Assembly (NCBI GenBank): GCA_963715955.1
Contig: CAVQSQ010000012.1
Span: 211,050 to 275,049, forward strand
Reading direction: 5' to 3'
Length of the DNA stretch: 64,000 nucleotides
Source: Candidatus Sulfomarinibacteraceae bacterium
GTDB lineage: Bacteria > Acidobacteriota > Thermoanaerobaculia > Thermoanaerobaculales > Sulfomarinibacteraceae
Part shown: piece by piece, positions 22,228 to 52,068 of the stretch
Layout of the letters: each line of letters starts with the position of its first letter
How positions within the stretch are numbered: the first letter of the stretch is position 1
Made by a program: the position numbers and the translations under genes
The notes under the pieces: model-generated
What the model saw: the letters and a program-made list of their open reading frames with translations, nothing else
What the model was told of the DNA's origin: nothing
Database searches by the model: none

Positions 22228-22388
22228 GATGACCCCCTTTGGTGGAGCAAAGACCGCCCTTTTCAGTTCTTGATGTGAAATCCGGTGTTCGTACAATCTC
22301 AATCATATCAGCAGTCAAGAACTGTAATTGCATGATTGAACAAGTAGTTACATGACCATGTTCGGGTTCATGTGGCAGCCGGCAGGCA

Positions 22389-23729: not shown

Positions 23730-25915
23730 TCCTCAGAAGGGATGACCACGTCCTCGTCCCAGATCCACTTCGCAAAGAACCGCCAGTTGTGCCACACCGC
23801 CGCCAGCAGCTCCTTGGGTTTGGAGATCCCGTGACCGAAGCCCTTGTAGATCACCAACTCCACAGGGACGCCCACGTCCTGCAGACCCTGGTAGAGCTCG
23901 TAGGCGTTCGGCGTCGGCACCCGCCGGTCGAACTCGCCGTGCTGGATCAGGGTCGGCGTCGAAGCGTCATTGATGTAGGACATCGGCGACGTCCTGGCGT
24001 AGACCTCGGGATCGCTCCACGGCGTGCCCTGCAGGTAGTGGCGGGTGAAGGGGTGGATGTCGGTGTTGACGTAGTAGGTCATCCAGTTGGAGATCCCCGC
24101 CCCGACCGAGATCGCCGCGAACCGGTCGCTGGTGGTGGTCAGAAAGGCGGAGATGTAGCCGCCCTGGCTCCAGCCCATCGCCCCGATGCGATCGCCGTCG
24201 ACGAAACCCTGAGCCACCAGGTGGTCGACCCCCGACAGCACGTCCCAGGCGTCGCCGACGCCGAGGTTGCGGACGTTGAGGGAGCGGAATGCCTCACCGT
24301 ACCCTGCCGACCCGCGGTAGTTGGGCATCAGAATCACGGCCCCCTTCTCGAGCCACTGCTGAACCGGGTAGACGTAGGTGTAGGCGCGAACCGGGAACGA
24401 CAGCCACGACGGACCGCCGTGGATGATCACGAGCAGCGGGTGTTTCTCCGACGGGTCGAACCCGTCAGGTTTGAGCAGGATGCCCTCGATCGTCGCGCCG
24501 TCCTCGCTCGCCCACTCGACGACCTCGCGACTTCCCATCGCCCAGCCGTCGGTCTGCTCGGTGGAGCTGGGTGATGCGGCGAGCGCCCGGTCGTCACCGG
24601 GGTCGACCCGGTACACCTCATCCAGCGTGTCGATGCCTTCTCCCTGAAACGCCCACGTCCGCCCGTCCTTCGAAAAATCGACGCTCCAGATGATCCGAGG
24701 CGCTCCCTCGACCACCACTCGATCTATCTCGCCGCTCTCCGGGTCGAGCCGGAAGAGCCCGCGGGTCGTTCGATGAAGCGCCAGAAAGCGGATGCCGTCG
24801 TCGAGCCATGCCACCGCGGACGCGTCCTCGTCAAAGGCCTCGGTCAAGACGACCGGCTCGCCACCGCCGGCAGGCACCTTCGCCAGTTCGGAGTTGAGGT
24901 AGTACGACGGATCGCCGTCACCGGTGGAAAACAGCACCCAGGCGCCATCCGGCGACCAGTGCGGGTCGCGGTCCGGGCCCGCCTGCGCGACCAGTGCCTT
25001 GACCTCGGTGCTTTTCACGTCGACGACCGAGAGATCCGCCTCGGTCCGAGATTCGACGCGCGGGTCCGGCCGGTGGTCGAAGGCGATCCTGGTGCCGTCG
25101 GGCGACCAGCGAAAGGTGTCGACGGTGAATTCCGCGCCGCTCGTGAGACGTCGAAACGGCGAGGGTTTCTCGTCTTTCTTCCCATCGTGCTCCTCGTCAT
25201 CATCGCCGGTCGATTCGTCCGGGAGTTCGGCCCCTTCACCACCGGCGAGGGCGGCCCTCACATCCAGCAGCCACAGGTGGGTGTTGCGGAAGTCGTGATC
25301 CTCGATCGAATAGGCCCCGTAGGTCTCCTCGAGCTTCTTCCGTTCCGGGTCCTGGCGGTCGGTGATGGCGACGGCCATCCGGGCGCCGTCGGGCGCCCAC
25401 TCGAAAGCCGAAACTCCGTCTTCGACCGCCGTCAGGGGCCGGGCCTCGCCGCCACGAGGCGAGATCAACCAGATCTGCGAACCCTGGCCCCGGTCGGCCG
25501 CAAACGCGATCCAGGAACCGTCCGGCGACCATTTCGGGTCCGAACTGCTCTCGCCCTCGGTTCGCGTCAGCTGGAAAGGCTCCTCTCCGCGGCGGGCCAG
25601 CCAGAGCTCGGCGTCGAACCGGTTCTCCTCCCATTCTGCCCGGCGCACCGTGTACACAATGGCACTGCCGTCGGGCGAGATCTTCGGGTCGCCGGCGCTC
25701 TCCAGGCTGAGGACCTCCCGGAAACCCGGATCGGAAAAGGCGACCGGGCTGGCCTGCGTCTCTTCGGTCTCATCCGCCCCAACAAAGGAAGCGACCACCA
25801 GCCCACAGACCAGGGAGAACCACACCAACCTGAACACTCTGGGTCTCACACCGCCCTCCACGACTCCTCCGAATTCAGAACAACGTCCTGCGGCGGCAGC
25901 GTACCACGAGCCCAC
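23726..25915 (-). CDS. S9 family serine peptidase (beta-propeller plus prolyl-oligopeptidase catalytic domain)
   Basis: GWSQGGY nucleophile elbow. HGEFDRRVP and GFGHG motifs near the C-terminus. N-terminal TolB-like propeller repeats (SPDGS/W.PDG). The likely true start is the GTG at 25849 (VRPRVFRLVWFSLVCGLVV...). Confidence 0.9.
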   Translation of the reverse strand: MGSWYAAAAGRCSEFGGVVEGGVRPRVFRLVWFSLVCGLVVASFVGADETEETQASPVAFSDPGFREVLSLESAGDPKISPDGSAIVYTVRRAEWEENRFDAELWLARRGEEPFQLTRTEGESSSDPKWSPDGSWIAFAADRGQGSQIWLISPRGGEARPLTAVEDGVSAFEWAPDGARMAVAITDRQDPERKKLEETYGAYSIEDHDFRNTHLWLLDVRAALAGGEGAELPDESTGDDDEEHDGKKDEKPSPFRRLTSGAEFTVDTFRWSPDGTRIAFDHRPDPRVESRTEADLSVVDVKSTEVKALVAQAGPDRDPHWSPDGAWVLFSTGDGDPSYYLNSELAKVPAGGGEPVVLTEAFDEDASAVAWLDDGIRFLALHRTTRGLFRLDPESGEIDRVVVEGAPRIIWSVDFSKDGRTWAFQGEGIDTLDEVYRVDPGDDRALAASPSSTEQTDGWAMGSREVVEWASEDGATIEGILLKPDGFDPSEKHPLLVIIHGGPSWLSFPVRAYTYVYPVQQWLEKGAVILMPNYRGSAGYGEAFRSLNVRNLGVGDAWDVLSGVDHLVAQGFVDGDRIGAMGWSQGGYISAFLTTTSDRFAAISVGAGISNWMTYYVNTDIHPFTRHYLQGTPWSDPEVYARTSPMSYINDASTPTLIQHGEFDRRVPTPNAYELYQGLQDVGVPVELVIYKGFGHGISKPKELLAAVWHNWRFFAKWIWDEDVVIPSEE

Positions 25916-26050
25916 AGCACGGTGTTCTCAACTCTGGTCAACACAGGGTGTGATGGCCGTCACCGCTGATACCGGACCACCTCGACATCGAGGAAGCGTG
26001 GCATATACTGGGAGGTGCAACCAAGAAAACCATCGAGAGGGGAATTCTGA

Positions 26051-27274
26051 ATGAGGGCTCAACTCCTGGCCGCGGCATTGATCATTGCTGTCGGGTTCGG
26101 CGCGGCTGCGCCGTCGACAGCGTCCGACGAGACCCCATCCGTCAAGGCGATCGCGCTGATCGACGACTTCGAGGACGGCGACCTTGTCGGATGGGCAGCG
26201 CCCACCGGCGGCTGCACCGCCGTCAACACCGGGCTCACCGGCGCGAACGGTTCGTCACGCAGCCTCCAGGTGGACGGAGCGTGCGGCCATTACCAGGGGC
26301 CGTGGTTCGACCTCGTCAACTTCCAGGCGACCGGCGTCAGCTTCTGGGTGCGCCCGGGCTCGACCTCTTTGGCCGATACGTACGTCGTCATCGGCGACGA
26401 CAATGTGACGAACAACAATGGTGTGGTCTTCTTTTACGGCCACTCCACCGGTCAGTTCGTGCTCATTGGTCCCGGTATCGACGACTACTTCCTCGCGCCA
26501 TACGTCGCCAACCAGTGGTATCGGATCGACCTCACCCTCGACTGGGTCGGCCGCACCGTCGACGTCTTCATCGACGGCGTGGCGCGGCAGTACAACGTGC
26601 CCTTCCGGTCGCCGGCAACCACAACGCTGACCCAGCTCCACTTCTACAATTTCAACAACTCGACCGCATGGCTCGACTACATCGTGATGTCGTCGCCGCC
26701 CCCGTCTCTCGATCTCTTCGAAAACGGGTTCGAGTCCGCCGACACGACCGCCTGGTCGCTCACAACGCCGGCGCTGCCGTCGCGCCTCGTGCTCTACGAC
26801 GGCGGCGGCATCTCGGGCCCGATCGGGGGCCGCTCGGGGGCCGACGTCCTGTGCGGACAGACGGCCCTGACGGCCACGGGCATCCCCCTCAATGCCACCA
26901 CCCGCGCCTTTCTTTCGTTCTCGGCGTCCGACGAGATCCGTGATTTTCCGACGTTGTACGGTGTGCCCACGGACCGCCAGATCACCGGCCCCAACTGGAG
27001 TGTGGTCGCCGACGACTGGGCCGATCTTCTCGACGGAACGATCGATCAGACGCTGGTCGACGCCGGGGTTCTGACCGCGAGCAACTTCTGGTACACCGGC
27101 AGCAACCCGGACGGGGCCGTGGCACCCTACACCTGCAGCGGTTGGACCGACGGCGCCACCTTTTTCGACGGACGCTACGGCAGCAGCCAGGTAGGCGACG
27201 ACCGCTGGATCAGCACCGGAGAAGCGACCTGCGGCCTCGTTTCCTACCACGTGCTCTGCCTCGCCTGGAGGTGA
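26051..27274 (+). CDS. exported two-domain protein: ConA/LamG-like jelly-roll plus C-terminal endostatin/DUF1554-like domain
   Basis: Signal peptide. N-terminal domain DDFEDGDLVGW...WYRIDLTLDW...VFIDG. Linker LFENGFESADTTAWSLTTP. The C-terminal domain carries GGRSGADVLCGQTA..TRAFLSFS...W..LLDG...FWYTGSNPDG..YTCSGWTDG...ATCG..SYHVLCLA. Confidence 0.7.
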   Translation: MRAQLLAAALIIAVGFGAAAPSTASDETPSVKAIALIDDFEDGDLVGWAAPTGGCTAVNTGLTGANGSSRSLQVDGACGHYQGPWFDLVNFQATGVSFWVRPGSTSLADTYVVIGDDNVTNNNGVVFFYGHSTGQFVLIGPGIDDYFLAPYVANQWYRIDLTLDWVGRTVDVFIDGVARQYNVPFRSPATTTLTQLHFYNFNNSTAWLDYIVMSSPPPSLDLFENGFESADTTAWSLTTPALPSRLVLYDGGGISGPIGGRSGADVLCGQTALTATGIPLNATTRAFLSFSASDEIRDFPTLYGVPTDRQITGPNWSVVADDWADLLDGTIDQTLVDAGVLTASNFWYTGSNPDGAVAPYTCSGWTDGATFFDGRYGSSQVGDDRWISTGEATCGLVSYHVLCLAWR

Positions 27275-27335
27275 ACGACCCAGGCCGCGGTTGAGGCATA
27301 ATGGCGGCCTCGAGAAAATCTTCGCGGAGGCCTGA

Positions 27336-27854
27336 GTGCAACTGGAACACGCCATCACGACCGCCATAAAATTCGAGACCCGGGTCCACGCGACTTATGC
27401 CGAGGCTGCTGCACGCGCCGAAAATCCGGTGGCGCGGCGGGTCTTTTCGACCCTGTGCGAGGAAGAGAAGGGCCATATCCGATACCTCCGCGAACGCCTC
27501 GAGGAGTGGCGCGCCGACGGCAGGATCAATGTCGAAGAGATCGGCGGCGAACTCGGTTCACGCTCCGCCGTCGAGGCCGGAGCGGCCAGGCTCCGCACCA
27601 CCCTTGCGGGCGGCAGCCCCGGCGGCACCGGCGCCGAGCTCGAGAGCCTGAGAAAGGCCCTCCACGCGGAGCGCGAAACCAGCGACTTCTACAAACAGAT
27701 GGTTGCCACCTTGGATGCCGACGGCAAACGTCTCTTCGAGCGCTTCGTCGAGATCGAAGAGGGCCACCTGGCGATCGTCCAGGCGGAGATGGACCTCGTG
27801 ACCGGCTCCGGCTACTGGTTCGACACCGGAGAGTTCCGCCCCGAGGCGGGCTGA
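27336..27854 (+). CDS. ferritin-like / rubrerythrin-family di-iron protein
   Basis: Two E..H-containing helices (LCEEEKGHIRYL and FVEIEEGHLAIV). Confidence 0.75.
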   Translation: MQLEHAITTAIKFETRVHATYAEAAARAENPVARRVFSTLCEEEKGHIRYLRERLEEWRADGRINVEEIGGELGSRSAVEAGAARLRTTLAGGSPGGTGAELESLRKALHAERETSDFYKQMVATLDADGKRLFERFVEIEEGHLAIVQAEMDLVTGSGYWFDTGEFRPEAG

Positions 27855-27864
27855 CGAGCCGGCG

Positions 27865-28761
27865 TCACCGGCGCCGCGGCGAGTGCGAAGCCACGGCGAC
27901 CCCGATGACGACCATGGCCGAACCCACAAGGGTGCGCGCGGTCAGCGTTTCGTCGAGGAAAAGGACGCCCAACACGACCGCGACCACCGGCGTGCCGTAA
28001 CCGATCAGTGCCACCTGACGAGCTCGCATGTGCTCGAGCAGCCAGAAGTAGAGGGGAAAGGTGATCGCGGTCCCGGCCACGGCCATGTAGAGGATCGCCA
28101 GCACCGGCCAACGTTCCAAGACAATCGTCTCGTGCCCTTCGGTGAAAGCGGCGACAACACCCATGATGACCGATCCATAAACAACCGCCACCGCGTTGAA
28201 CGCAACCGGCCGGATGCCGTGCCCCCACTTCTTGTAGGCAACGGTCGAGATGGCTGCGACGAAAGGCGACACCAGCATGATGAGCGAGGCCACCAGGACC
28301 GAACGGCCTCCGAGCAGATCGAAATCCTCGGCAAAGATGGCGGCGATGCCGGCAAAACCCAGGGCCGTACCCACCATCACCTTGACGGTCATGCGTTCGC
28401 CAGGCAGCGCGAAGTGGGCCATCACCGCCACGATCAACGGAAAGGTCGCAAAAAGGACCGCTGCCAGCCCGGAAGGCACCCACTGTTCGGCCCAGAACAC
28501 GATCCCGTAGGAAATGCAGAACGACAGCACGGCGTGGACCACCCGCAACCACCGGTCGCGGCTGTTGATCGCAGCCAACGGGGTGCCGATTGCGCGCGCG
28601 ATCACGACGAGAAGAACGGCGGCAACGACGAACCGCAGGGCAACCCCCGTGAAGGGCGGGAAGCCGCGCAGCGAAATCCTCACCGCCGCCCACGTCGTCC
28701 CCCAGATCCCGACCAGGAGTGCGAGCGTCGCAGCCTTCAACGCGGGACCCGGTTCACCCAT
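27865..28761 (-). CDS. EamA/DMT family transporter
   Basis: Ten TM helices and two EamA halves (WGTTWAAVRISL...; ...LLEHMRARQVALIGYGTPVVAVVLGVLFLDE). The start is the ATG at 28761, and the track ORF is over-extended upstream. Confidence 0.85.
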   Translation of the reverse strand: MGEPGPALKAATLALLVGIWGTTWAAVRISLRGFPPFTGVALRFVVAAVLLVVIARAIGTPLAAINSRDRWLRVVHAVLSFCISYGIVFWAEQWVPSGLAAVLFATFPLIVAVMAHFALPGERMTVKVMVGTALGFAGIAAIFAEDFDLLGGRSVLVASLIMLVSPFVAAISTVAYKKWGHGIRPVAFNAVAVVYGSVIMGVVAAFTEGHETIVLERWPVLAILYMAVAGTAITFPLYFWLLEHMRARQVALIGYGTPVVAVVLGVLFLDETLTARTLVGSAMVVIGVAVASHSPRRR

Positions 28762-28833
28762 GACCGGCGACTCTACTCCCACCACTGGGCAAACGCCAGA
28801 TCGTCGGCCGTCGCGAGAGCCTGAAAATGCCGA

Positions 28834-28839
28834 TATAAT
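28834..28839 (+). promoter_or_regulatory. perfect TATAAT hexamer 7 nt upstream of the permease ATG (possible leaderless promoter)
   Basis: Sequence ccgaTATAATtccgcgcATG. There is no Shine-Dalgarno between the hexamer and the ATG at 28847. The -35 element is weak. Confidence 0.3.
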
Positions 28840-28846
28840 TCCGCGC

Positions 28847-31141
28847 ATGAACACCACATCCAGGGGACCGGTACCGGCCGCCGGAGAAACCACCTTTGCG
28901 CGCGACCTCGGTTTGTTCGACGCCACCATGATCGGGGTCGGCGCGATGATCGGCGCCGGCATCTTCGTCCTCACCGGGATCGCGGCCGGGGTCTCCGGCC
29001 CGGCTTCGATCCTCGCCTTCGCCCTCAACGGCGCGGTCACTCTGCTGACGGCCTTTGCCTATGCGGAGTTGGCCTCGGCCATTCCACGTGCCGGCGGCGG
29101 ATACTCCTACGTGCGGCTCGCCTTCCCCGGAGCGATGGGATTCATATCCGGCTGGATGCTGTGGTTTGCCTACACGGTGGCCTGCAGCCTCTACGCGCTC
29201 GGTTTCGCGGGGTATTTCTGGGAGGTCTTCCACAAATACACGCCGGCCCTTGCCGAGCACCTGTTCGGCGCCGCGGGGACCTACGTTCCGATCGTCGTCG
29301 TCACCGTGATCATCGGGTTCATCTTCCTCGGCCTCAACATCCGCGGCGCAGCGGTGACCGGCAAGGCCGAAAACGCCCTCACTCTCGCCAAGCTGGCGGT
29401 GCTCGGGATCTTCATCGCCTACGGGCTCAAGAAGATCTTCGGCGCCCCGGCGGAGGCGGCCGAGGGCTTCTCTCCGTTCTTCCCGCTCGGCGCCGGCGGC
29501 GTCATCGTCGCCATGGGTCTGACCTTCATCGCCTTCGAGGGCTACGACCTCATCGCCACCGTCGCCGAGGAGATCAAGGACCCGGAAAAGAACATCCCGC
29601 GCGCCACCTTCATCTCCCTCGCCGTCACCATCACCATCTATCTCCTGATCCTGTTCGTCTCGCTCGGCGCCATCCGCGTCGACGACCTGACGTCCTGGGA
29701 GTTTTTGGGCAGGTACGGGGAGACCGCCATCGTCCGCGCCGCCGAGCAGTTCATGCCGGCCTTCGGGGTCGCCATCATCGTCCTCGGCGGCCTGTTGTCC
29801 ACGATGTCGGCCCTCAACGCGACCATCCTCGCGGCTTCCCGCGTCGCCTTCTCGATGGCCAGGGACCGTTGGCTGCCCAGGCAGATCGCCCACATCGACC
29901 CGGTCCGCCGGACCCCCCGCGCCGCCATCGTCGTCACCGGCGTGATCCTGATCGTCATGGCAGTCACCCTGCCCATCGAGGCCGTCGGCTCGGCCGCGAG
30001 CCTGATTTTTCTTCTGACCTTTGCACTGGTGAACCTGTCGGTGATCGCGCTGCGGCGCAAGGCGCCCGAGATCGAGCGCAGGTACAGGGTGCCGCTGTAC
30101 CCCTTGACGCCGATCCTCGGCATCGTCCTCAACGTCTTCCTCGCCCTCTACCAGTTCACCTTCCAGCCCATCGCCTGGTACATCACGACCGGCTGGGTGG
30201 TGCTCGGTTTGTTGCTCTATTACGGCGTGTTCGAGAAGCTGGCCTCGGATGTCGAGCCGAAGGTGCTGGTGCCGTCGCGCCGCCCCGACGAACCACCGGC
30301 CGAGGACTCGGTGATGGTGGTCCTCCACAACCCCGACTTCATCGAGACGCTGCTCGACTTCGCGATCCCGGTGGCCGAGCTGCGCGGCCGGCGACTGGTT
30401 GCGATGACGGTCGTCGAGGTCCCGCAACAGCTGCCGATCCACGAAGGCATGCGTTTTGCGCACCACAAGGAGACGCTCCTGCGCGACGCCCAGCAGTACG
30501 GCAGAGAGCGTGGGGTCAAGATCGACACCGACCTCGTGATCGCCCACAAGGTCGAGGAGGGCATATTCACCGGCGCCGCCCGCCACCGGGCGGACGTCAT
30601 GGTCATGGCGTGGAAGGGCTTCAGCAACACCCGCGACCGCATCTTCGGCGAGACCGCGGACAACGTCATCCGCTACGCGCCCTGCGACCTGATGATGCTC
30701 AAGATCGAGGGTCGGGAGTTCAGGACCTGTCTCTTCCCGACCGCCGGCGGGCCCAACGCCCAGCTCGCGGCCGATCTGCTCAACGCCCTCGCCAAGTCCC
30801 ACAACATGGAGGTCACGGCGGGCTATGTCGTCCCGCCGGACGCCACCGACGAACAGCGCCACACCGCCCGCGCGTGGATCGACAAGACGCTGGCCCACAT
30901 GCACGTCGACCTGCCGGTCGAAAAGCAACTGATCGAGTCCGCATCGGTGGCCGGCGGTCTCGCCAAGGCGAGCCGCGACTTCGACCTCGTCGTCATCGGT
31001 GCGGCCAAGGAGCCGGTCTTCCGCAAGATGTTGATCGGTGAGATCCCGCAGAAGGTGGCACGGTACTCGCCGGCTTCCGTGCTGGTCGTCAAGCGCTACG
31101 AGGGCCCGTTCAAGACCCTCATCAAACGGATCATGGGCTGA
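28847..31141 (+). CDS. APC-superfamily amino-acid permease fused to tandem universal stress protein (Usp) domains
   Basis: LGLFDATMIGVGAMIGAGIFVLTG with about 12 TM helices. The C-terminal part of about 270 aa has two Usp-like halves (VMVVLHNP...MVMAWKG; ...VVIGAAKE...VLVVKR). Confidence 0.85.
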   Translation: MNTTSRGPVPAAGETTFARDLGLFDATMIGVGAMIGAGIFVLTGIAAGVSGPASILAFALNGAVTLLTAFAYAELASAIPRAGGGYSYVRLAFPGAMGFISGWMLWFAYTVACSLYALGFAGYFWEVFHKYTPALAEHLFGAAGTYVPIVVVTVIIGFIFLGLNIRGAAVTGKAENALTLAKLAVLGIFIAYGLKKIFGAPAEAAEGFSPFFPLGAGGVIVAMGLTFIAFEGYDLIATVAEEIKDPEKNIPRATFISLAVTITIYLLILFVSLGAIRVDDLTSWEFLGRYGETAIVRAAEQFMPAFGVAIIVLGGLLSTMSALNATILAASRVAFSMARDRWLPRQIAHIDPVRRTPRAAIVVTGVILIVMAVTLPIEAVGSAASLIFLLTFALVNLSVIALRRKAPEIERRYRVPLYPLTPILGIVLNVFLALYQFTFQPIAWYITTGWVVLGLLLYYGVFEKLASDVEPKVLVPSRRPDEPPAEDSVMVVLHNPDFIETLLDFAIPVAELRGRRLVAMTVVEVPQQLPIHEGMRFAHHKETLLRDAQQYGRERGVKIDTDLVIAHKVEEGIFTGAARHRADVMVMAWKGFSNTRDRIFGETADNVIRYAPCDLMMLKIEGREFRTCLFPTAGGPNAQLAADLLNALAKSHNMEVTAGYVVPPDATDEQRHTARAWIDKTLAHMHVDLPVEKQLIESASVAGGLAKASRDFDLVVIGAAKEPVFRKMLIGEIPQKVARYSPASVLVVKRYEGPFKTLIKRIMG

Positions 31142-31208
31142 AGTCCGCGTTTCGCCGTCGCGCCCAGACTTTCCAATTCCACTGTAGAATCATCCGCCGC
31201 GGAGGTTT

Positions 31209-32204
31209 ATGGGAATGAACGAACATCGAATCGGCATCCTCGGACTCGGCGCCTACCTGCCCGAGCGGGTGATGGGCAACGCCGAGTGGGCACAGTACGT
31301 GGACACCTCGGACGAGTGGATCACAAGCCGCACCGGGATCAAGAACCGCCGAATCGCCGCCGAAGACGAAACCACGGTCGACCTGGCCGCTGCAGCAGCA
31401 CGGGTGGCCCTCGAGGACGCCGGCATCTCCATCGATGCCATCGACGAGATCATCGTCGCCACCGACACTCCGGAGGTCAAACTCCCCGACACCGCCTCGT
31501 ATCTCCAAACCGCTCTCGGTGCGCGGGAGATACCCTCCTTCGACCTTGCCGGCAGCGGTTGTGCGGGCTTTGTCCTCGGTCTCGACATCGCGCGCTCGCG
31601 CGCGATCACCGGTGACAAGAAGGTCCTGCTGGTCGGAGTCGAGATGCTGACCCGCCTCGTCAACTGGAACGATCGCACGACCGCCGTCCTGTTCGGCGAC
31701 GCCGCCGGGGCGGCCGTTGTGGGGAAAGTCGAGGGCTCTTCGGAGCTCTTGTCGTTCACGGCCGGCACCGACGGCTCGCGGGCCGATATTCTGTGCCTCG
31801 AGACGGGCGGCACGAGGGCGCCGTTCACCATCGAGGCAGCTCAACGGGGCGATCACAAGAACCTCGTCATGAACGGCCGTGAGGTCTTCAAGGAGGCGGT
31901 CTCGAAGATGGGCGCCGCGTCGCGGAAGGTCCTCGCCGATGCCGGGGTCGAGGTCTCCGACCTCGCCCTTGTCGTACCGCACCAGGCGAATCTGAGAATC
32001 ATCAACGCGCTCCAGAAATCGCTCGGTATCGCCGACGACCGGCTTTTCATCAACGTCCAGGACTACGGCAACACAGGTTCTGCATCGGTTCCGTTGGCTT
32101 TGTGGGAGGCCCGTCACCAGGGCCGGGTCAAGGCCGGAGACCTGGTGCTGCTGACCGCCTTCGGCGCCGGCTTCCACTGGGCGGCGATGCTCATTCGGAT
32201 CTGA
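31209..32204 (+). CDS. fabH: beta-ketoacyl-ACP synthase III
   Basis: DEWITSRTGIKNRRIA, active-site GSGCAGF, VPHQANLRII and GNTGSASVP motifs. Confidence 0.9.
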   Translation: MGMNEHRIGILGLGAYLPERVMGNAEWAQYVDTSDEWITSRTGIKNRRIAAEDETTVDLAAAAARVALEDAGISIDAIDEIIVATDTPEVKLPDTASYLQTALGAREIPSFDLAGSGCAGFVLGLDIARSRAITGDKKVLLVGVEMLTRLVNWNDRTTAVLFGDAAGAAVVGKVEGSSELLSFTAGTDGSRADILCLETGGTRAPFTIEAAQRGDHKNLVMNGREVFKEAVSKMGAASRKVLADAGVEVSDLALVVPHQANLRIINALQKSLGIADDRLFINVQDYGNTGSASVPLALWEARHQGRVKAGDLVLLTAFGAGFHWAAMLIRI

Positions 32205-33337
32205 GTCGGCGCCGCGAAGCGGCCCACCCGCCTGGTCCACTGAGAGGCCGACAGCGCGCTGCCCACGGCGAAGATCACCAACACCACCAGCCCCAACGCG
32301 GTGCCTCGGCGATCGGGGAACCGCCTACAGACCGCTACGGCGACCAGCGCGAGCCCGACAGCGGGCAGGTAGGCGTAACGTTCAGCCCACGTCAGGCGGC
32401 ACACCGGAATGAACGACGCTGCAGCCCACAGCCAGCCAGACACCAGGACGCGGTCCCGGCTTCTCACGGCCATCCATATCCACCCACCGAGCGAAGCCAT
32501 GCAGACGACGACCAGGAACCGGCTCATCCCTTGCGCGGTCCACAGCCAGTCACCAACCTCGTTGCGAGCGATTGGAACGAGTGCCATCACGAGACTTTGG
32601 GTTGTCGCCGCCAGACACTGCCACGGGTTTCCCATGAGGATACCGACCGTTCCGATTCCGGGCACCCGGGTGGCATACCAACTCACATAGAGGAGGGTCA
32701 CGGCCGGGTAGGCGGCGATCCATCCCCATCCAGGACGCTTGGGTCCGAAGACCCAGACCGCAACCGGCACCAGAAGGCCGGCCACAACTGCCGTTTCCTT
32801 GGCGCCACATCCCAGGACAACCGCCGCCAATGAGGCCAGCCAGAGCCGCCACCCCACCGCCGCCCTCGCCTCCGCGGCCGCCAACGCCAACAGCACCGCG
32901 CTGATCACGAATCCTGTAGCCAACAGGTCCCCGACGCTTGCCGTCCAGGCAATGGCCTCGTTCAAGATGGGCAACATTGCAAAGGCAAGCGCCCCGTACA
33001 GAGCCGGCCAACCGAACCCCGCCACCCTCGAGCACAGCAGGAACACCAGCCATACGACGACCACATGGCACGTAATCGAAGCCAGATGGTAGCCCGGCGC
33101 CCACTCGCCGAATACTCTTTGACAGATTTCAAAGTATTGAGAAACGAGGGGCCGATAGTATCCAATCGGCCACGGCTCGAGGACCCCGGATACGAGACCA
33201 TCCGATTCGCCGGCGAGCTGCACATACATGGAATCATCTATCGAAAAGCCAGCCTGCACCAACGGCAGTCTCGGCAGCACCGCAGCCAGCGTCAGGACCG
33301 CGAACCACCAGAACGGCGCACTCCGCTTCATCGCCAC
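32114..33337 (-). CDS. polytopic membrane protein, GT39/PMT-like (uncharacterised)
   Basis: At least 9 TM helices and an N-terminal loop DDSMYVQLAGE...YYRPLV. The last roughly 30 codons run antisense through the fabH 3' end, so the true stop is uncertain. Confidence 0.6.
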   Translation of the reverse strand: MAMKRSAPFWWFAVLTLAAVLPRLPLVQAGFSIDDSMYVQLAGESDGLVSGVLEPWPIGYYRPLVSQYFEICQRVFGEWAPGYHLASITCHVVVVWLVFLLCSRVAGFGWPALYGALAFAMLPILNEAIAWTASVGDLLATGFVISAVLLALAAAEARAAVGWRLWLASLAAVVLGCGAKETAVVAGLLVPVAVWVFGPKRPGWGWIAAYPAVTLLYVSWYATRVPGIGTVGILMGNPWQCLAATTQSLVMALVPIARNEVGDWLWTAQGMSRFLVVVCMASLGGWIWMAVRSRDRVLVSGWLWAAASFIPVCRLTWAERYAYLPAVGLALVAVAVCRRFPDRRGTALGLVVLVIFAVGSALSASQWTRRVGRFAAPTQIRMSIAAQWKPAPKAVSSTRSPALTRPW

Positions 33338-33439
33338 ACCTCATACTGACCGAAGAGCCGCGTCGCCGCAACGCCGGAGTGATCGGCACCACCCGCGGGG
33401 TGGTGTACCATTTCTGCGATCGGAGCCAAAGGAAGAGCC

Positions 33440-33719
33440 ATGATTGCAGTCGGCGACACCGCCCCCGGATTCTCACTCAAAGACCAGTTCGGTCGCACCT
33501 TCTCCCTCGACCAGTTCAAAGGCAAACGGCACGTGATGCTCCTGTTCTACCCCCTCGATTTCACCCCCACGTGAAGCACCGATCCCAAAGCCCTCGAGGA
33601 CCTGACGGCGATTGCCGGCAAGGGCCAGGCCCCCTGCCTGGTGATCGGCGGCACTCCGCACCACGAGTCGGCCGAGATCATCACGCATCTCGCCGGCAGG
33701 GTCACGGAATTCAGCTAGT
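33440..33719 (+). CDS. peroxiredoxin (Bcp/AhpC-TSA)-like ORF with in-frame TGA (33572-33574) at the peroxidatic Cys position; candidate selenoprotein, C-terminally short (92 codons)
   Basis: AAAGGAAGAG lies upstream of the ATG. Translation is MIAVGDTAPGFSLKDQFGRTFSLDQFKGKRHVMLLFYPLDFTPT-TGA-STDPKALEDLTAIAGKGQAPCLVIGGTPHHESAE...TEFS-TAG. The family motif is FYP.DFTP.C(T/S).(E/D). Confidence 0.55.
33590..33625 (+). other. candidate SECIS-like stem-loop downstream of the UGA
   Basis: GCCCU (33590-94) pairs with AGGGC (33621-25). The inner stem 33603-33609/33614-33620 has one mismatch. The apical loop GAUU (33610-13) lies about 35 nt after the UGA. Folded by eye only. Confidence 0.25.
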
Positions 33720-33734
33720 TTTTCTGTTGACAAG

Positions 33735-33765
33735 AAAACGAGGCCGGTAAACCGGCCTCGTTTTT
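33735..33765. terminator. bidirectional intrinsic terminator
   Basis: AAAA-CGAGGCCGG-TAAA-CCGGCCTCG-TTTTT: a perfect 9-bp GC stem flanked by an A-run and a T-run. Confidence 0.7.
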
Positions 33766-33773
33766 CTTCACCG

Positions 33774-33802
33774 AAAAAGCCGGCCGCCTGGACGGCCGGC
33801 TT
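33774..33802 (-). terminator. intrinsic terminator for dcp (minus strand)
   Basis: GCCGGCCG-CCTGGA-CGGCCGGC hairpin preceded on the plus strand by AAAAA, which is a T-run on the minus strand. It lies 5 nt beyond the dcp stop. Confidence 0.55.
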
Positions 33803-33806
33803 CGGT

Positions 33807-35915
33807 CTATTTGAAGCCCTTTCTCTGCAAGAGGGGCTCGACGCTCGGCGGCTGGCCGCGGAAGCGCAGGTAGAGCTCCTCGGGATCTTCGGAGCCGCCT
33901 TTCTCCAGGATGTTGGTGCGGAAGGCCTGGGCGGTCTCCTGGTCGAAGAGGCTCGTCTCCTTGAATGCCTGGAACGCATCCGCATCGAGAACCTCGCTCC
34001 AGATGTAGGAGTAGTAGCCGGCCGAGTACCCGCCGGTGATGTGGCTGAAGTAGGGACTGCGGTAGCGAACCACGATCTCGGGCATGAGGCCGATCTTGTC
34101 CATCGACGCCTTTTCGAACTCCCTCACATCGACACCGGCCGGGTCCTCGAGGGTGTGCCAGTCCATATCCAGATAACAGGCAGCGAGGTACTCGACGGAG
34201 GTGAAGCCCTGGTTGAACTGTTCCGCAGCCTGGATCTTCGCCACCAATTCGGCAGGGATCACCTCTCCGGTCTCGTAGTGTTTGGCGTAGACGGCAAGCA
34301 CCTCGGGTTCGAGGAGCCAGTTTTCCATGATCTGCGACGGCAGCTCGACGAAGTCCCGCGTCACGCCTGCCGACCCACGGTACCGAACGTCGGAAAGCAG
34401 CGACTGCAGCCCGTGGCCGAGCTCGTGGAAGAGGGTGTGGACCTCCTCCAACGAGATCAGCGCCGGCGCATCGCCCACCGGGCGCGAGAAGTTGCCGACG
34501 TTGAGAACGATGGGCCGCACCTGCTGTCCGTCCTCGACCCACTGCCCCCGGATCCGGCGGCTCCAGGCGCCGCCGCGTTTGCCGGGTCTCGGGTAGTAGT
34601 CGGTCATGAAGACGCCGAGGTGGCTGCCGTCGACGTCGGTGACCTCGAAGGTCCTCACTTCGGGGTGGTAGGTGGGGATGTCGTCCCGCTCAGTGAACTC
34701 GATCCCGTAGAGACGGTTGGCCACGTAGAAAGCGCCGTCGATCACGTTGTCGATCATGAAGTACGGCCGGATCTCGGTTTCGTCCACGTCGTAACGCGCC
34801 TGACGGACCTTTTCCGCGTAATACCGCCAGTCCCAGGGCTCGAGCTTGAATTGGAAACCGTCCTCCTCGATCGCGGTCTGCAAGGCCGCCGCCTCCTCGC
34901 GAGCCACCCCGAGCGAAGGATGCCAGAGGTCATCGAGAAGCTCGTAGACCGTCTCCGGCGTCTTCGCCATCCGGCGTTCGAGGATGAAGTCGGCATGGGT
35001 CGGGTATCCCAGGAGCTTCGCCTTTTCCGCGCGCAAGGTCAGGATCTCCGACAGGATCGCCTTGTTGTCGTACTCGTCGTCGTGATCGCCACGCGTGATG
35101 TAGGCGGTGAAGAGCTGTTCGCGAAGCTCGCGGTTTTCGGCACTCTGGAGGAAGGGATAGATGCTCGGCCGGTGGGTCGTGAAGAGCCACTTGCCCTCCT
35201 GACCCGCCTCTGCGGCCGCAATGGCCGCCCCCTCGACCACGGCCGGAGGAAGGCCTGCGAGGTCTTCCTCGTTTTCGATGAAGAGCTGAAAGCGATTGGT
35301 CTCGGCCAGAACGTTGTCGCCGAATGCCAGCCCGAGAGTCGACAGCCTGGTATTGATCTCCCGCATCCGGGCCTGGTCCCGGGCGGACAGTTCGGCGCCA
35401 CCGCTGACAAAATCGAGGTAGGTCTCTTCGAGGAGATGGCGCTGCTCCGCGTCGAGGTCGAGCTCGTCGCGCTGCTCGTAGACGGCCTTCACCCGGGCGA
35501 AGAGCTGCGGATTCATGAGAATGTCGTCGCGGAGGTTCGAGGTCATGGGCGCGACCTCCTTGGCGATGGCCTGGATGTCGTCGTTGGTTTCCGCGCCGAC
35601 CAGGGTGTAAAAGACGCCGTTCACCTTGCTCATCAACGCCCCGGTGGCGTCGAGCGCTCCCAGTGTATTGTCGAAGGTCGGCGGATCGGGGTTGGCGGCA
35701 ATGGCCTCGACCTCCGCACGTTCCTCCGCAATGCCCTTCTCGAAGGCCGGCAGGAAATCCCCGTTCTCGATGTCGCCGAACGGCGGCACGCCGTAGGGCG
35801 TGGTCCACTCGACGAAGAACGGGTTCTCGCCCTCGGACGGCGCTTCCGTTCTCGCCCCGCAGCCCGACAACAGCACGACCGAAAAAACGAGACCGATCGC
35901 GATTGACTTCTTCAT
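33807..35915 (-). CDS. dcp: M3 family peptidyl-dipeptidase Dcp (lipoprotein)
   Basis: HTLFHELGHGLQ zinc motif (HExxH). Lipobox VVLLSGCGA. About 700 aa, typical of Dcp. Confidence 0.9.
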   Translation of the reverse strand: MKKSIAIGLVFSVVLLSGCGARTEAPSEGENPFFVEWTTPYGVPPFGDIENGDFLPAFEKGIAEERAEVEAIAANPDPPTFDNTLGALDATGALMSKVNGVFYTLVGAETNDDIQAIAKEVAPMTSNLRDDILMNPQLFARVKAVYEQRDELDLDAEQRHLLEETYLDFVSGGAELSARDQARMREINTRLSTLGLAFGDNVLAETNRFQLFIENEEDLAGLPPAVVEGAAIAAAEAGQEGKWLFTTHRPSIYPFLQSAENRELREQLFTAYITRGDHDDEYDNKAILSEILTLRAEKAKLLGYPTHADFILERRMAKTPETVYELLDDLWHPSLGVAREEAAALQTAIEEDGFQFKLEPWDWRYYAEKVRQARYDVDETEIRPYFMIDNVIDGAFYVANRLYGIEFTERDDIPTYHPEVRTFEVTDVDGSHLGVFMTDYYPRPGKRGGAWSRRIRGQWVEDGQQVRPIVLNVGNFSRPVGDAPALISLEEVHTLFHELGHGLQSLLSDVRYRGSAGVTRDFVELPSQIMENWLLEPEVLAVYAKHYETGEVIPAELVAKIQAAEQFNQGFTSVEYLAACYLDMDWHTLEDPAGVDVREFEKASMDKIGLMPEIVVRYRSPYFSHITGGYSAGYYSYIWSEVLDADAFQAFKETSLFDQETAQAFRTNILEKGGSEDPEELYLRFRGQPPSVEPLLQRKGFK

Positions 35916-38035
35916 CGTTGAGATCCCTTCTCGAGCTCATCGAGTTCCCATGGCGGAAGTTCAGTGTTCTCCTCGATCACGAAATGATCCATCCAACGCA
36001 TCAACCGCCGCGCGTAGTCGTCCCGCGAGGCGGCTCTCGAGTTCCCGTGCTTCTCACCGGGGTAGCGCACGTAGCGAACCGGGGTCTTGCCCGACAACTT
36101 GAGGGCCCGGTAGAGCTGCAGGCTCTGTGAAGGGTGGACCCGCGAATCGGCGGTGCCGCCGGCGATGAGCAACGGGGTCCGGGCGTTTTCGACGTATGCG
36201 ATCGGGCTGCGCTCGAGCCGGAACTGCAGCTTGGTCCACGGGTCCGCGAGAGTGTGGACCATCCGGTCTTCCACCGGAATTTCGGTGGTCAGCCCCTTGC
36301 TGATGTCGTTGCTGATGCCGACAAACATCACCCCCGCTTTGAAACGTTCGCTGTAGCGTGTGGCACACCAGGCGGTTGCGTAGCCGCCATAGGAGCCGCC
36401 GGTGATTCCGACACGGTCGGGATCCGCGATGCCGGCCTCCGCCAATGCGTCCACCGCGTCGAGCAGATCGTCGAACTCCGCCCCGGCGGCATCGGCCTGA
36501 CCGAGCTTCGAAAAGGCCACTCCGCGGCCGGTGCTGCCCCTGTAGTTTGGGAAAAACACGGCGTAACCGCGAGCGGCGGCAAGCTGAGCCGGCGCCGAAT
36601 ACGATGTCAGCCAACCGTTGCGGCGGTGGCCTTCGGGACCACCATGCACCATGAGCAACAACGGCGCGGGACCTTCGGTTTCACGGAGCGGCCGGAGCAA
36701 CACGCCGCTGAGGTCGAGCCCGTCCTTCGCCTGATGCCCGAAGACCTCCTGCAGTGCGAGATCCACATCCGCCAGCCAGGGATTGCTGTCGGTCAGCCGC
36801 CTCGGGCCTTCGTCGCCGTGGCTCATGACAAAGACCTCGGAAGGGTGGCGCGGCGAATCACCCACCAACACCGCGCGCTTCCCGTCACCGGCGACGGCGA
36901 GGCCCGTCATGACCGGGACCCGGGCGCTCCCCTGCTCGACGCCCGAGATTGCGTGGGTCTTTTGCGCGCCGGTGGAGATATCGACCTCGCCGAATCGCGT
37001 TTCCTCTCCTTCATCGGAGAGAAACATCAGGGTGTCGTCATCCTGCCACGCGAAGACGTTCACGTGGCCCTCGAGGTCCGGAAGCACGTCCTGCAGCGGA
37101 CCGCCCGCCGCCTCCGCCACCAGCAGCCGTCCGGCTGCAGGGTCGTTGGGATCGGCGGCCGATATCATCGCGAGGTGGGCGCCGTCTGGGCTGATTTCGA
37201 AATCGCCGAGCTTTCCGGGGTTGTCGAAGGACGACCGGGTTTCGCCGGTGTCCGCATCGACGATATGAACCCGGCGCGCCATGTACTGGTCGTCGATCAA
37301 CGGAGTCGGCGCCACATCCACCGCCAACCACTCTCCACCGGGGCTCCAGCGGACGTGGAAGACCGATCCCTCGATGGGAAGGGCGCGCGCCTCGACGTCG
37401 ACGCCTGGTGCCGTCGACGGATTCGCCGCTACCGGCTGAAACGGCGGCAAGGGTTGCAGCCAGACCCGCTTGGGCAACCAGTCCTCCTCGAAGACCTCCT
37501 GGGAAAAACCCTTCTCTTCAGCCTTGGTGCGGTCCTCGCTCTGCGGCTCTTTGGCAACGAAGGCGACCGTCGTCCCGTCGGGCGACACCCGGTAGTCGGT
37601 GATGTCGGTGCCGAACGAAATCAACCGCCTCGACTCACCCCCGGCGAGCGGGATCGCCCACAGCGCGGTGTGATCGTCTCCGTCGCGTTCGGCGAGATAC
37701 GTGATCAGCGAACCATCGGGGCTGAATCCGATCTGGGAGACCTTGACCTCGCCGCCGACAAAGGTCCGATCGCGGCCGTCGCCCCCGATCACGTGGAGCT
37801 CGACCCACGCGGGTCCGTCTTCGTCGATGCCGGGTCGGCGCGGCACGGTCAGAGCGTAGGCGATCGTGGCCCCGTCCGGCGACAGGACCGCTCCTCCCAC
37901 CGACCGCAGGGCGCCGAGTTGTTCAAAGGTCATCCCTTCGGCGCTTCCAGCCGCAGCGGGCGCGGCAGCGCACCACACGGCCGCCGCCAGCGCGGCCAGT
38001 CTCAAACGAAACGACGAATTGTGAATTCGCGACAT
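35912..38035 (-). CDS. S9 family serine peptidase (propeller plus alpha/beta hydrolase)
   Basis: GGSYGGY nucleophile motif. SPDG propeller repeats. Signal peptide. The stop overlaps the dcp start (ATGA). Confidence 0.9.
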   Translation of the reverse strand: MSRIHNSSFRLRLAALAAAVWCAAAPAAAGSAEGMTFEQLGALRSVGGAVLSPDGATIAYALTVPRRPGIDEDGPAWVELHVIGGDGRDRTFVGGEVKVSQIGFSPDGSLITYLAERDGDDHTALWAIPLAGGESRRLISFGTDITDYRVSPDGTTVAFVAKEPQSEDRTKAEEKGFSQEVFEEDWLPKRVWLQPLPPFQPVAANPSTAPGVDVEARALPIEGSVFHVRWSPGGEWLAVDVAPTPLIDDQYMARRVHIVDADTGETRSSFDNPGKLGDFEISPDGAHLAMISAADPNDPAAGRLLVAEAAGGPLQDVLPDLEGHVNVFAWQDDDTLMFLSDEGEETRFGEVDISTGAQKTHAISGVEQGSARVPVMTGLAVAGDGKRAVLVGDSPRHPSEVFVMSHGDEGPRRLTDSNPWLADVDLALQEVFGHQAKDGLDLSGVLLRPLRETEGPAPLLLMVHGGPEGHRRNGWLTSYSAPAQLAAARGYAVFFPNYRGSTGRGVAFSKLGQADAAGAEFDDLLDAVDALAEAGIADPDRVGITGGSYGGYATAWCATRYSERFKAGVMFVGISNDISKGLTTEIPVEDRMVHTLADPWTKLQFRLERSPIAYVENARTPLLIAGGTADSRVHPSQSLQLYRALKLSGKTPVRYVRYPGEKHGNSRAASRDDYARRLMRWMDHFVIEENTELPPWELDELEKGSQR

Positions 38036-51948: not shown

Positions 51949-52068
51949 TCTGAGACCTCCCGGTACTGAAATCCTCGACCAAATCCACCTGCGCGGCATG
52001 GTACACCGGCTGAGAAATTGTCGAGGCGACGCTTGTTCAATCGAACACTTCAGGGTAGGGTACCGCCC

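What the first reader, a model, noticed from the sequence alone, without database searches (positions are those of the whole stretch)
33440..33719. Peroxiredoxin-like ORF with an in-frame TGA exactly at the peroxidatic-cysteine codon: candidate selenoprotein, or a decayed gene stub
From the ATG at 33440, which has AAAGGAAGAG upstream, the frame reads ...HVMLLFYPLDFTPT, then TGA (33572-33574), then STDPKALEDLTAIAGKGQAPCLVIGGTPHHESAE.... In Bcp/AhpC-TSA peroxiredoxins the active-site motif is FYP.DFTP.C(T/S).(E/D), so the TGA sits on the catalytic Cys. Family-like residues (V.G.SP....ES) continue in the same frame after it. Neither adjacent frame gives a Cys or a longer ORF. A two-tier hairpin at 33590-33625 places a GAUU apical loop about 35 nt after the UGA, which is within the spacing reported for bacterial SECIS elements. 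Prx-like selenoproteins are an established bacterial selenoprotein class. Against this, the ORF ends after 92 codons, directly before a strong bidirectional terminator. It therefore lacks the C-terminal half of a normal Prx fold. A TGC-to-TGA hit in a gene remnant cannot be excluded, and no sel genes lie in this window.
Basis: partly seen in the sequence, partly recalled or inferred. Interest (0 to 1): 0.7.

Follow-up and report, generated by a model that had tools for sequence, protein, structure and literature searches.

The report
Internally deleted selenoprotein peroxiredoxin gene remnant
The TGA is a genuine ancestral selenocysteine codon, but this copy of the gene has lost its middle 159 codons, including the RNA signal needed to read TGA as selenocysteine, so it is most likely a recently broken gene.

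Summary
In detail: ATG 33440, in-frame TGA 33572-33574 at the peroxidatic position of a PxxxTxxU motif, TAG 33716-33718. Comparison with 150 related loci explains it. Relatives carry a 251-codon gene: an AhpE-like peroxiredoxin with TGA at that codon (139 loci; TGC/TGT only in 8 distant homologs without the second domain) fused to a C-terminal monothiol (CGFS/CMFS) glutaredoxin-like domain. The window keeps codons 1-47 and about the last 45. Exactly 477 nt (159 codons) are missing, in frame, between imperfect repeats AGCACCGA/AGCGAGGA. The closest relative (L059, Ca. Sulfomarinibacteraceae) is collinear for about 20 kb and breaks only there. The deletion removed the catalytic Arg, the conserved Cys, the Grx active site and both conserved post-UGA hairpins (covariance model: 14.8 bits here, 49-106 bits in intact loci). 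The residues after the TGA belong to the Grx domain, not the Prx core. Best reading: a recent pseudogene of a known selenoprotein kind. Low interest for the locus. The family's SECIS arrangement is a modest side lead.

The parts
33428..33437 (+). Shine-Dalgarno-like AAAGGAAGAG upstream of the ATG. It lies inside the stretch 27245-33582 that aligns to L059 at 90.8% identity.
33440..33571 (+). 5' remnant: codons 1-44 of the ancestral Sec-Prx::Grx gene (N-terminal beta-hairpin, beta-strand HVMLLFYP, PxxxT of the active-site loop). 93.7% nt identity to L002/L078 and 3 aa differences from L059.
33572..33574 (+). TGA at the peroxidatic position. It is an ancestral selenocysteine codon (TGA in 139 related loci). 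Here it has no SECIS and so most likely acts as a stop.
33575..33586 (+). Deletion junction. AGC ACC GA (to 33582) is the last 5'-side sequence, and homology to the 3' side resumes at GAT CCC AAA. The best split point is 33582/33583. The two breakpoints lie in imperfect direct repeats AGCACCGA / AGCGAGGA. 477 nt (residues 48-206 of the 251-aa protein) are absent.
33584..33715 (+). 3' remnant: the last ~44 codons of the Grx-like domain (alpha2, cis-Pro strand APCLV, HES, C-terminal helix). 80-87% nt identity to relatives. This part explains the weak GST_N_2/GST_N_3 Pfam hits.
33716..33718 (+). TAG, the native stop codon position of the full-length family gene.
33606..33617 (+). It is made of pre-existing Grx-domain codons (T/V-A-I-A-G), is not conserved as a structure in relatives, and is not a supported SECIS.
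33737..33765 (.). Bidirectional intrinsic terminator (AAAACGAGGCCGG-TAAA-CCGGCCTCGTTTTT), shared with the convergent M3 peptidase gene. The same element follows the intact gene in L002.
   Evidence: direct reading. The consensus scan did not list it and reported neighbouring stems at 33777-33818 instead.
32114..33337 (-). Upstream divergent neighbour: a 407-aa membrane protein with no Pfam match. It is syntenic with the 409-aa gene next to the intact gene in L003 and with L059.
33807..35915 (-). Downstream convergent neighbour: Peptidase_M3 (702 aa), syntenic in L059, L078 and L012.

Best explanation
Window 33440-33718 is the remnant of a selenoprotein gene. The ancestral gene has 251 codons and is intact in the closest relatives. 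It encodes an AhpE-like 1-Cys-type peroxiredoxin whose peroxidatic residue is selenocysteine (FYPLDFTPT-U-S-x-E), fused through a ~25-residue linker to a monothiol (CGFS/CMFS) glutaredoxin-like domain.

In the window's lineage, a single 477-nt in-frame deletion between two imperfect 8-nt repeats joined codon 47 to codon 207. It removed:
(a) both conserved RNA hairpins that follow the UGA in intact genes (the family's SECIS region);
(b) the Prx core, with the catalytic Arg (TDR) and the conserved YCH cysteine;
(c) the linker;
(d) the first half of the Grx domain, with its CxxS active site.

Inferred consequence: the locus is probably still transcribed and initiated, because the RBS and upstream region are conserved. 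Without a SECIS the ribosome terminates at UGA 33572 and releases a 44-residue peptide with no function. That makes it a recent pseudogene.

Shown: the anatomy, the orthology and synteny, the deletion, the ancestral TGA, and the loss of the conserved RNA element.
Inferred: termination at the UGA, loss of function, and the chemistry of the intact enzyme (a Sec selenenic acid resolved by the fused Grx Cys or by glutathione).
For: - Homolog proteins in the 5.8-billion collection end exactly at ...FYPLDFTPT, or start downstream and carry the rest of a Prx plus a Grx domain.
- Read-through of L001, L002 and L003 gives 251-codon ORFs with one in-frame TGA.
The 8 with TGC/TGT are 33-46% identical and lack the Grx domain.
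- Pfam on the intact protein: AhpC-TSA 4-130 plus Glutaredoxin 174-231. On the window ORF, only AhpC-TSA profile positions 1-60 of 124, plus weak GST_N hits.
- Window nt 33440-33582 equals gene nt 1-143 of L002 (93.7%), and 33584-33718 equals the last 135 nt; 756 - 279 = 477 nt are missing.
- L059 is collinear with window 20857-43535 at 75-91% identity, and across the gene the alignment breaks only at 33582|33584 = L059 10143|10625.
- The flanking genes and the terminator are the same as beside intact copies.
- Post-UGA element: helix 2 is paired in 93.5% of cells, with C-G<->U-A compensatory changes in 16 sequences at one pair and 2 at another, and with frozen synonymous sites.
- Covariance model R1 scores 49-106 bits on intact loci but 14.8 bits in the window, where the 60 model positions holding both helices collapse to 8 nt.
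- The TDR Arg, the YCH Cys and the CGFS/CMFS motif, all in the deleted interval, are conserved across the family.
- There is no second copy in the window.
Against: - The remnant shows no further decay. It is in frame, has no extra stops, and its dN/dS against L059 is 0.21 (5') and 0.25 (3'), within the range of neighbouring genes (0.05-0.28). That is what a still-selected ORF would also show, although the counts are tiny (7 and 11 substitutions) and most of the divergence may predate the deletion.
- A hairpin that nominally satisfies the published bSECIS criteria lies 35 nt after the UGA.
- Reads were not available, so the deletion cannot be verified against the raw data.
- The rest of the genome (Sec machinery, paralogs) is unseen.
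Confidence: 0.85

Rival explanations
1. Assembly artefact or minority allele: the organism really carries the intact 251-codon gene, and the 477-nt gap arose during assembly or represents a rare variant in the population.
For: - The window's source contig is not on record, so it could not be cross-checked.
- The closest relative, L059, itself contains several frameshifts in this gene that look like long-read errors, which shows that assemblies of this clade are imperfect.
- None of about 150 other loci has the short form.
Against: - The junction has only 2-8 nt of imperfect homology, far too little to collapse a de Bruijn or overlap assembly.
- The gap is exactly 159 codons and clean.
- The flanks are contiguous and collinear with L059 on both sides.
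- Other independently disrupted copies exist (L139/L140), so real loss of this gene does occur.
Confidence: 0.08
2. A functional 92-residue mini-selenoprotein: the in-frame fusion grafts the Prx Sec loop onto the C-terminal beta-beta-alpha of a Grx fold, and the GAUU hairpin (33606-33617) serves as a new SECIS.
For: - The deletion is in frame, and the RBS, start, stop and terminator are retained.
- The remnant's dN/dS is not elevated.
- The hairpin passes the permissive bSECIS criteria: loop GAUU, 4-bp upper stem, 35-nt spacing, -14.2 kcal/mol.
Against: - 60% of random TGAs in the window pass the same criteria.
- The fold is no better than shuffles.
- The hairpin is built from pre-existing Grx codons and is not conserved in relatives.
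- The loop lacks the G[G/U] that is usual in bSECIS apices (PMC13188914).
- The family's own conserved element is gone.
- The product would lack the Prx catalytic Arg and the Grx CxxS motif.
- No other locus has this architecture.
- An in-frame outcome has a 1-in-3 chance expectation.
- The window-unique changes in the 3' remnant are all non-synonymous (V->T by two nucleotides, and Y->H at a position that is Y in all close relatives).
Confidence: 0.04
3. A Cys-peroxiredoxin remnant that acquired a TGC-to-TGA nonsense mutation.
For: Cys forms of the motif FYPLDFTPT-C exist in distant homologs (L143, L149, L151, L152).
Against: - Every close and moderately distant relative (139 loci, 50-93% identical) has TGA at this codon.
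- The 8 Cys forms are 33-46% identical and have a different architecture.
- The flanking sequence ACG TGA AGC ACC GA is identical to that of intact Sec genes.
Confidence: 0.01

Closest known systems
Sec-containing peroxiredoxin (Prx, TxxU / PxxxTxxU; PF00578), e.g. PrxU of Eubacterium acidaminophilum
   Same: The intact relatives have the PxxxTxxU motif with UGA at the peroxidatic position and a complete AhpC/TSA domain. This is an established bacterial selenoprotein family (PMC1794560 Table 1; PMC1088965; PMC13188914). The window keeps the motif and the UGA.
   Different: The NCBIfam PrxU equivalog scores only 83.6 bits against a cutoff of 270, so this is a different Prx subfamily. The relatives add a C-terminal Grx-like domain. 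The window copy has lost residues 48-206 and the SECIS region.
Mycobacterium tuberculosis AhpE (Rv2238c; PDB 1XXU, 1XVW), a 1-Cys peroxiredoxin
   Same: It is the best solved-structure match of the intact Prx domain (E 3e-26 over residues 1-140) and also of the window's first ~75 residues. From memory: AhpE is recycled by a glutaredoxin-like partner (mycoredoxin-1), which would fit a fused Grx domain.
   Different: AhpE has Cys, not Sec, and has no fused Grx domain. The window ORF covers only its first ~47 residues before switching to Grx sequence.
Hybrid Prx-Grx proteins (e.g. Haemophilus influenzae PGdx/Prx5-Grx). Recalled from memory, not tested here.
   Same: The domain order is the same, Prx followed by Grx, so the reductant is built into the peroxidase.
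   Different: The known hybrids are Cys enzymes of the Prx5 subfamily with a dithiol CPYC Grx domain. This family is AhpE-like, uses Sec, and has a monothiol CGFS/CMFS Grx domain. No paper describing a Sec-Prx::Grx fusion was found.
Bacterial SECIS consensus model (bSECISearch; PMC13188914 Fig. 2)
   Same: A minority of family members, mostly Myxococcota, have a canonical hairpin CCAGCGCU-GGA-AGCGCUGG with its apex 19-20 nt after the UGA.
   Different: In the window's clade the conserved, covarying hairpin with a GU apex lies 60 nt after the UGA, outside the model's 16-37 nt, behind an intervening hairpin. The window has neither configuration.

Membership tests
Sec-containing peroxiredoxin (Prx, TxxU) | PxxxTxx[U] active-site motif with an in-frame TGA aligned to the peroxidatic Cys of Cys homologs | tested here: met
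   P38-L-D-F-T42-P-T-TGA45. It aligns with FYPLDFTPT-C in the Cys homologs L143 and L149 and with TGA in 139 loci.
Sec-containing peroxiredoxin (Prx, TxxU) | Complete AhpC/TSA (thioredoxin-fold) domain including the conserved catalytic Arg | tested here: not met
   The Pfam AhpC-TSA match covers only profile positions 1-60 of 124, against 1-123 in the intact L002 protein. Residues 48-206, including the TDR Arg and the YCH Cys, are deleted.
Sec-containing peroxiredoxin (Prx, TxxU) | A SECIS element downstream of the UGA that is conserved among orthologs | tested here: not met
   The family element is two helices, of which helix 2 shows compensatory changes. It scores 49-106 bits in intact loci and 14.8 bits in the window, where both helices are collapsed. 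The window's substitute hairpin is not significant and not conserved.
Sec-containing peroxiredoxin (Prx, TxxU) | Orthologs that carry TGA (not only TGC) at the same codon, with a conserved ORF downstream | tested here: met
   139 TGA loci against 8 distant TGC/TGT loci. The downstream 206 codons are conserved: alignment A1 has 82% mean column identity.
Sec-containing peroxiredoxin (Prx, TxxU) | Sec-decoding machinery (selA, selB, selC/tRNA-Sec, selD) in the same genome | not testable with these tools
   Only 64 kb is available. There is no tRNA at all in the window and no SelA/B/D domains among the 30 largest genes. The source contig is not on record. No tRNA-Sec lies within the held flanks (4-10 kb requested each side) of the gene in the 60 relatives scanned.
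Glutaredoxin-like domain (PF00462 / GST_N) | CxxC or CxxS active site at the N-terminus of helix 1, plus the cis-Pro strand and C-terminal helix | tested here: not met
   The family has CGFS/CMFS in 106 of 108 proteins. The window lacks this segment and retains only the cis-Pro strand (APCLV), HES and the last helix. GST_N_2 scores 24.9 bits against a cutoff of 25.
Bacterial SECIS (bSECIS consensus model) | [quoted passage not shown] 2) | tested here: inconclusive
   The window hairpin passes: GAUU loop, 4-bp stem, 35-nt spacing, -14.2 kcal/mol. So do 361 of 600 random TGA trinucleotides in the window, so passing the criteria is uninformative here.

The most novel reading that the evidence does not exclude
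The 92-codon in-frame fusion is not dead. It would be a newly minted mini-selenoprotein in which the Prx selenocysteine loop is grafted onto the C-terminal half of a glutaredoxin fold, with the UGA decoded through the fortuitously placed GAUU hairpin. That would be a natural example of selenoprotein birth by domain-shuffling deletion. The evidence does not strictly exclude it: the ORF is in frame, the remnant dN/dS is not elevated, and the hairpin passes the permissive bSECIS criteria. Every specific test went against it.
Probability: 0.03. Interest if true: 0.8.

Novelty: new member of a known kind. Interest (0 to 1): 0.25.

Why it matters
For the window itself the result is mostly cautionary. 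An in-frame TGA on a catalytic Cys codon, a plausible hairpin and family-like residues downstream can together mimic a selenoprotein gene even when the locus is a deletion remnant. The published bSECIS criteria are passed by most random TGAs in GC-rich DNA.

It also documents selenoprotein loss by a route that is seldom discussed. Instead of Sec-to-Cys conversion or loss of the whole gene, an internal deletion takes out the SECIS along with the catalytic core.

Two useful facts emerge at the family level:
1. A large Sec-AhpE::monothiol-Grx fusion family occurs in Acidobacteriota, Myxococcota, Planctomycetota and others. It appeared in the protein collection searched here only as fragments split at the UGA, and it has no dedicated NCBIfam model.
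2. Its members show two nearly mutually exclusive post-UGA RNA configurations. One has its conserved GU apex 60 nt from the UGA, beyond the accepted 16-37 nt window. If that apex is the SelB-binding element, it bears on how strictly SECIS spacing is constrained in bacteria.

Tried and rejected
- RNAalifold on the 113-sequence post-UGA alignment returned no consensus structure. I therefore tested a hand-defined two-helix structure with pair counts and controls.
- Rfam (evalue mode) found nothing relevant in intact loci or in the window stub. Bacterial SECIS elements are effectively not covered.
- ARAGORN found no tRNA-Sec in the window or in 60 related loci.
- Looking up the window's M3 peptidase to find the source contig gave no record.
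- A crude scan for other in-frame-TGA genes in the window (high GC3 on both sides) gave four hits. All are antisense, low-complexity artefacts opposite long ORFs.
- I tried dN/dS and window-unique substitution counts to date the deletion. The counts are too small to decide.
- The promoter scan found no sigma-70-like site upstream, which is uninformative for this clade.
- Literature searches for a Sec-Prx::Grx fusion or for bacterial selenoprotein pseudogenes by SECIS deletion found nothing specific.
- I considered and rejected the idea that the short form is ancestral and the long form derived. The long form occurs in all other lineages and phyla, and the short form occurs only here.

Full report
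**1. Observation**

- AAAGGAAGAG at 33428-33437, followed by ATG at 33440;
- 44 sense codons ending HVMLLFYPLDFTPT;
- TGA at 33572-33574;
- 47 further sense codons, then TAG at 33716-33718;
- a perfect A-tract/stem/T-tract terminator at 33737-33765.

With Cys substituted for the TGA, Pfam AhpC-TSA matches residues 4-64 (E 1e-11), but only profile positions 1-60 of 124. Residues 39-87 give near-threshold GST_N_2/GST_N_3 hits. That was the first sign that the C-terminal half is not Prx sequence.

The window contains no tRNA. The region after the TGA folds no better than dinucleotide shuffles (-20.3 kcal/mol, z = +0.66).

One detail is wrong. An adjacent frame does hold a longer ORF (33379-33750, 123 aa), but it is an Arg/Pro-rich artefact.

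**2. What the relatives show**

A search of the 5.8-billion-protein collection returned 30 hits with a striking pattern:
- About 25 proteins end exactly at ...FYPLD[FW]TPT.
- Three (P0005, P0008, P0010) match only the C-terminal half of the query. They show that the tail GKGQAPCLVIGGTPHHESAEIITYLAGRVTEF normally ends a much longer protein, which contains the rest of a Prx (LLADFHPKGE...DRATVIIDADGVV) and a Grx-like domain.

I fetched the DNA for three loci and read through the stop. Each gives a 250- or 251-codon gene with a single in-frame TGA at the peroxidatic codon. Pfam finds AhpC-TSA at 4-130 and Glutaredoxin at 174-231.

Scans of one genome per species (73 loci) and of metagenome contigs (76 loci) extended this:
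- 139 loci carry TGA at that codon. The 8 with TGC or TGT are 33-46% identical and lack the Grx domain.
- Hosts are Acidobacteriota (Ca. Sulfomarinibacteraceae, Thermoanaerobaculia, Holophagae, Polarisedimenticolia), Myxococcota (including the cultured Enhygromyxa salina DSM 15201), Planctomycetota, Gemmatimonadota and others.
- The Grx motif is monothiol CGFS/CMFS in 106 of 108 unique proteins.
- The Prx domain's closest solved relative is M. tuberculosis AhpE (E 3e-26).

Sec-peroxiredoxin with the TxxU/PxxxTxxU motif is an established bacterial selenoprotein family (PMC1794560 Table 1; PMC1088965; PMC13188914). This subfamily has no dedicated NCBIfam model: PrxU scores 83.6 bits against a cutoff of 270. 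I found no paper describing the Grx fusion.

**3. The lesion in the window**

Left- and right-anchored comparison with L002 gives the anatomy:
- Window 33440-33582 equals gene nt 1-143 (93.7% identity).
- Window 33584-33718 equals the last 135 nt.
- 756 - 279 = 477 nt (159 codons) are absent, in frame.

The closest relative is L059, a Ca. Sulfomarinibacteraceae MAG. It is collinear with window 20857-43535 at 75-91% identity. Across the gene the alignment breaks only at window 33582|33584 = L059 10143|10625. L059 itself has frameshifts in this gene that look like long-read errors.

The best split point is 33582/33583. The breakpoints lie in imperfect direct repeats: AGCACCGA after the TGA, and AGCGAGGA in ...NVSED... 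of the Grx domain.

The neighbouring genes are the same as beside intact copies: FabH, a 407-aa membrane protein, then M3 and S9 peptidases. So is the terminator. The locus is therefore orthologous, not a stray fragment.

The deleted interval holds:
- the Prx core, with the conserved TDR arginine and the YCH cysteine;
- the linker;
- the CxxS active site of the Grx domain.

**4. The SECIS question**

113 unique intact sequences align without gaps for 90 nt around the UGA.
- Synonymous sites are frozen at codons +18 to +25: ACC in 114 of 117, CAG in 111 of 115, and GGT in 101 of 119 in a GC-rich clade.
- Helix 2 (ACACCCAG-GUY-CUGGGUGU) is paired in 93.5% of cells. It has C-G<->U-A double changes in 16 sequences at one pair and in 2 at another.
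- Helix 1, which starts about 17 nt after the UGA, is paired in 72.6% of cells.

Both helices lie inside the deletion. A covariance model of the element scores 49-106 bits on intact loci and 14.8 bits in the window. There only the unstructured leader matches, and the 60 model positions that carry both helices collapse to 8 nt.

But 361 of 600 random TGA trinucleotides in this window satisfy them too. The hairpin is made of pre-existing Grx codons and is not conserved in relatives.

**5. Mechanism and status**

Shown: the TGA is an ancestral Sec codon. The gene has lost 159 internal codons, including its conserved post-UGA RNA element and its catalytic residues. The start, RBS, stop and terminator remain.

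Inferred: translation starts at 33440 and terminates at 33572, giving a 44-residue peptide with no function. That makes the locus a pseudogene.

The deletion appears recent, or at least has not been followed by visible decay. There are no extra stops or frameshifts. The dN/dS against L059 is 0.21 and 0.25 for the two remnants, against 0.05-0.28 for the neighbours, from very few substitutions. The three window-unique nucleotide changes in the 3' remnant are all non-synonymous, which hints weakly at relaxed constraint.

For the intact enzyme I infer this chemistry from Prx and Grx knowledge; it was not tested. Sec45 is oxidised by peroxide to a selenenic acid, which is then resolved by the fused monothiol Grx domain or by glutathione.

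**6. Rivals**

- An assembly artefact or minority allele (about 0.08) cannot be excluded without reads. The junction microhomology is too short to collapse an assembly, and independently disrupted copies exist elsewhere (L139/L140).
- A functional mini-selenoprotein (about 0.04) is contradicted by every specific test.
- A TGC-to-TGA nonsense hit (about 0.01) is refuted by the orthologs.

**7. Verdict**

The locus is an internally deleted remnant of a member of the known Sec-peroxiredoxin kind. It has low interest in itself (0.25). A modest family-level lead on SECIS placement is recorded separately.

Noticed in passing
L002:551-640, L059:10127-10216 and 111 other loci (alignment A2); absent from the window: The Sec-Prx::Grx family shows two nearly mutually exclusive post-UGA RNA configurations. 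In 93 of 113 unique sequences there is no proximal hairpin, but there is a conserved, covarying hairpin ACACCCAG-GUY-CUGGGUGU whose GU apex is 60 nt after the UGA, outside the 16-37 nt of the bSECIS model. It is preceded by a second hairpin that could act as a spacer. In 13 of 113 (mostly Myxococcota, including Enhygromyxa salina) there is a canonical CCAGCGCU-GGA-AGCGCUGG hairpin 19-20 nt after the UGA, and the distal hairpin is degenerate. Five sequences have both and two have neither. The counts are not corrected for phylogeny.
   Followed up: partly
P0001-P0028; L001:6001-6798, L002:335-1180: In the public gene calls seen here this selenoprotein family is split at the UGA. One call is an N-terminal stub, often with a spurious upstream extension. 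The other is a separate ~200-aa 'AhpC-TSA + Glutaredoxin' ORF, variously named peroxiredoxin, glutaredoxin, glutathione S-transferase or SCO1/SenC. No full-length call appeared in the protein search.
   Followed up: partly
L139:1292-1500 and L140:550-760: This is an independently disrupted copy of the same gene. Homology to intact relatives (87% to L012 upstream) stops abruptly at codon 67, inside helix 2, and is replaced by unrelated, AT-richer sequence. It may be an insertion or a rearrangement.
   Followed up: partly
L136:47-1373 and L138:25-900: These are short metagenome contigs in which the first ~116 codons of the Sec-Prx run in frame into an unrelated ORF: a solute-binding-protein-like sequence in L136 and a multihaem (CxxCH-rich) cytochrome in L138. 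They are either chimeric assemblies or real rearrangements.
   Followed up: no
L065:10001-10500, L067, L068, L069 (Planctomycetota): A Sec-Prx form without the Grx domain: the ORF ends ~122 residues after the Sec. It still carries helix 2, with compensatory C-G to U-A changes in L067 and L068.
   Followed up: no
L013 and L043 (contigs CAVQOJ010000009.1 and CAVQOJ010000008.1 of one Holophagae MAG): Two copies of the intact gene occur in the same MAG, so paralogs exist in this clade. The window's genome could hold an intact second copy outside the 64 kb.
   Followed up: no
L059:10300-10760: The closest relative's copy of the gene shifts reading frame four times with no loss of protein similarity. 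This is most simply explained by homopolymer errors in a long-read MAG and not by real decay.
   Followed up: no
window 21177-22426 and 25747-27245: Relative to the otherwise collinear L059, the window has two extra segments of about 1.25 kb and 1.5 kb. They hold a 391-aa ORF with no Pfam match (21127-22302, minus strand) and a DUF1554 protein (26051-27274).
   Followed up: no
window 9228-10793, 23726-25915, 33807-38035, 57247-59346: The window is rich in secreted or periplasmic peptidases (S46, two S9, M3, M1). It also encodes cytochrome bd oxidase subunit I (50425-52266). This fits a proteolytic, microaerotolerant sediment Acidobacteriota lifestyle.
   Followed up: no
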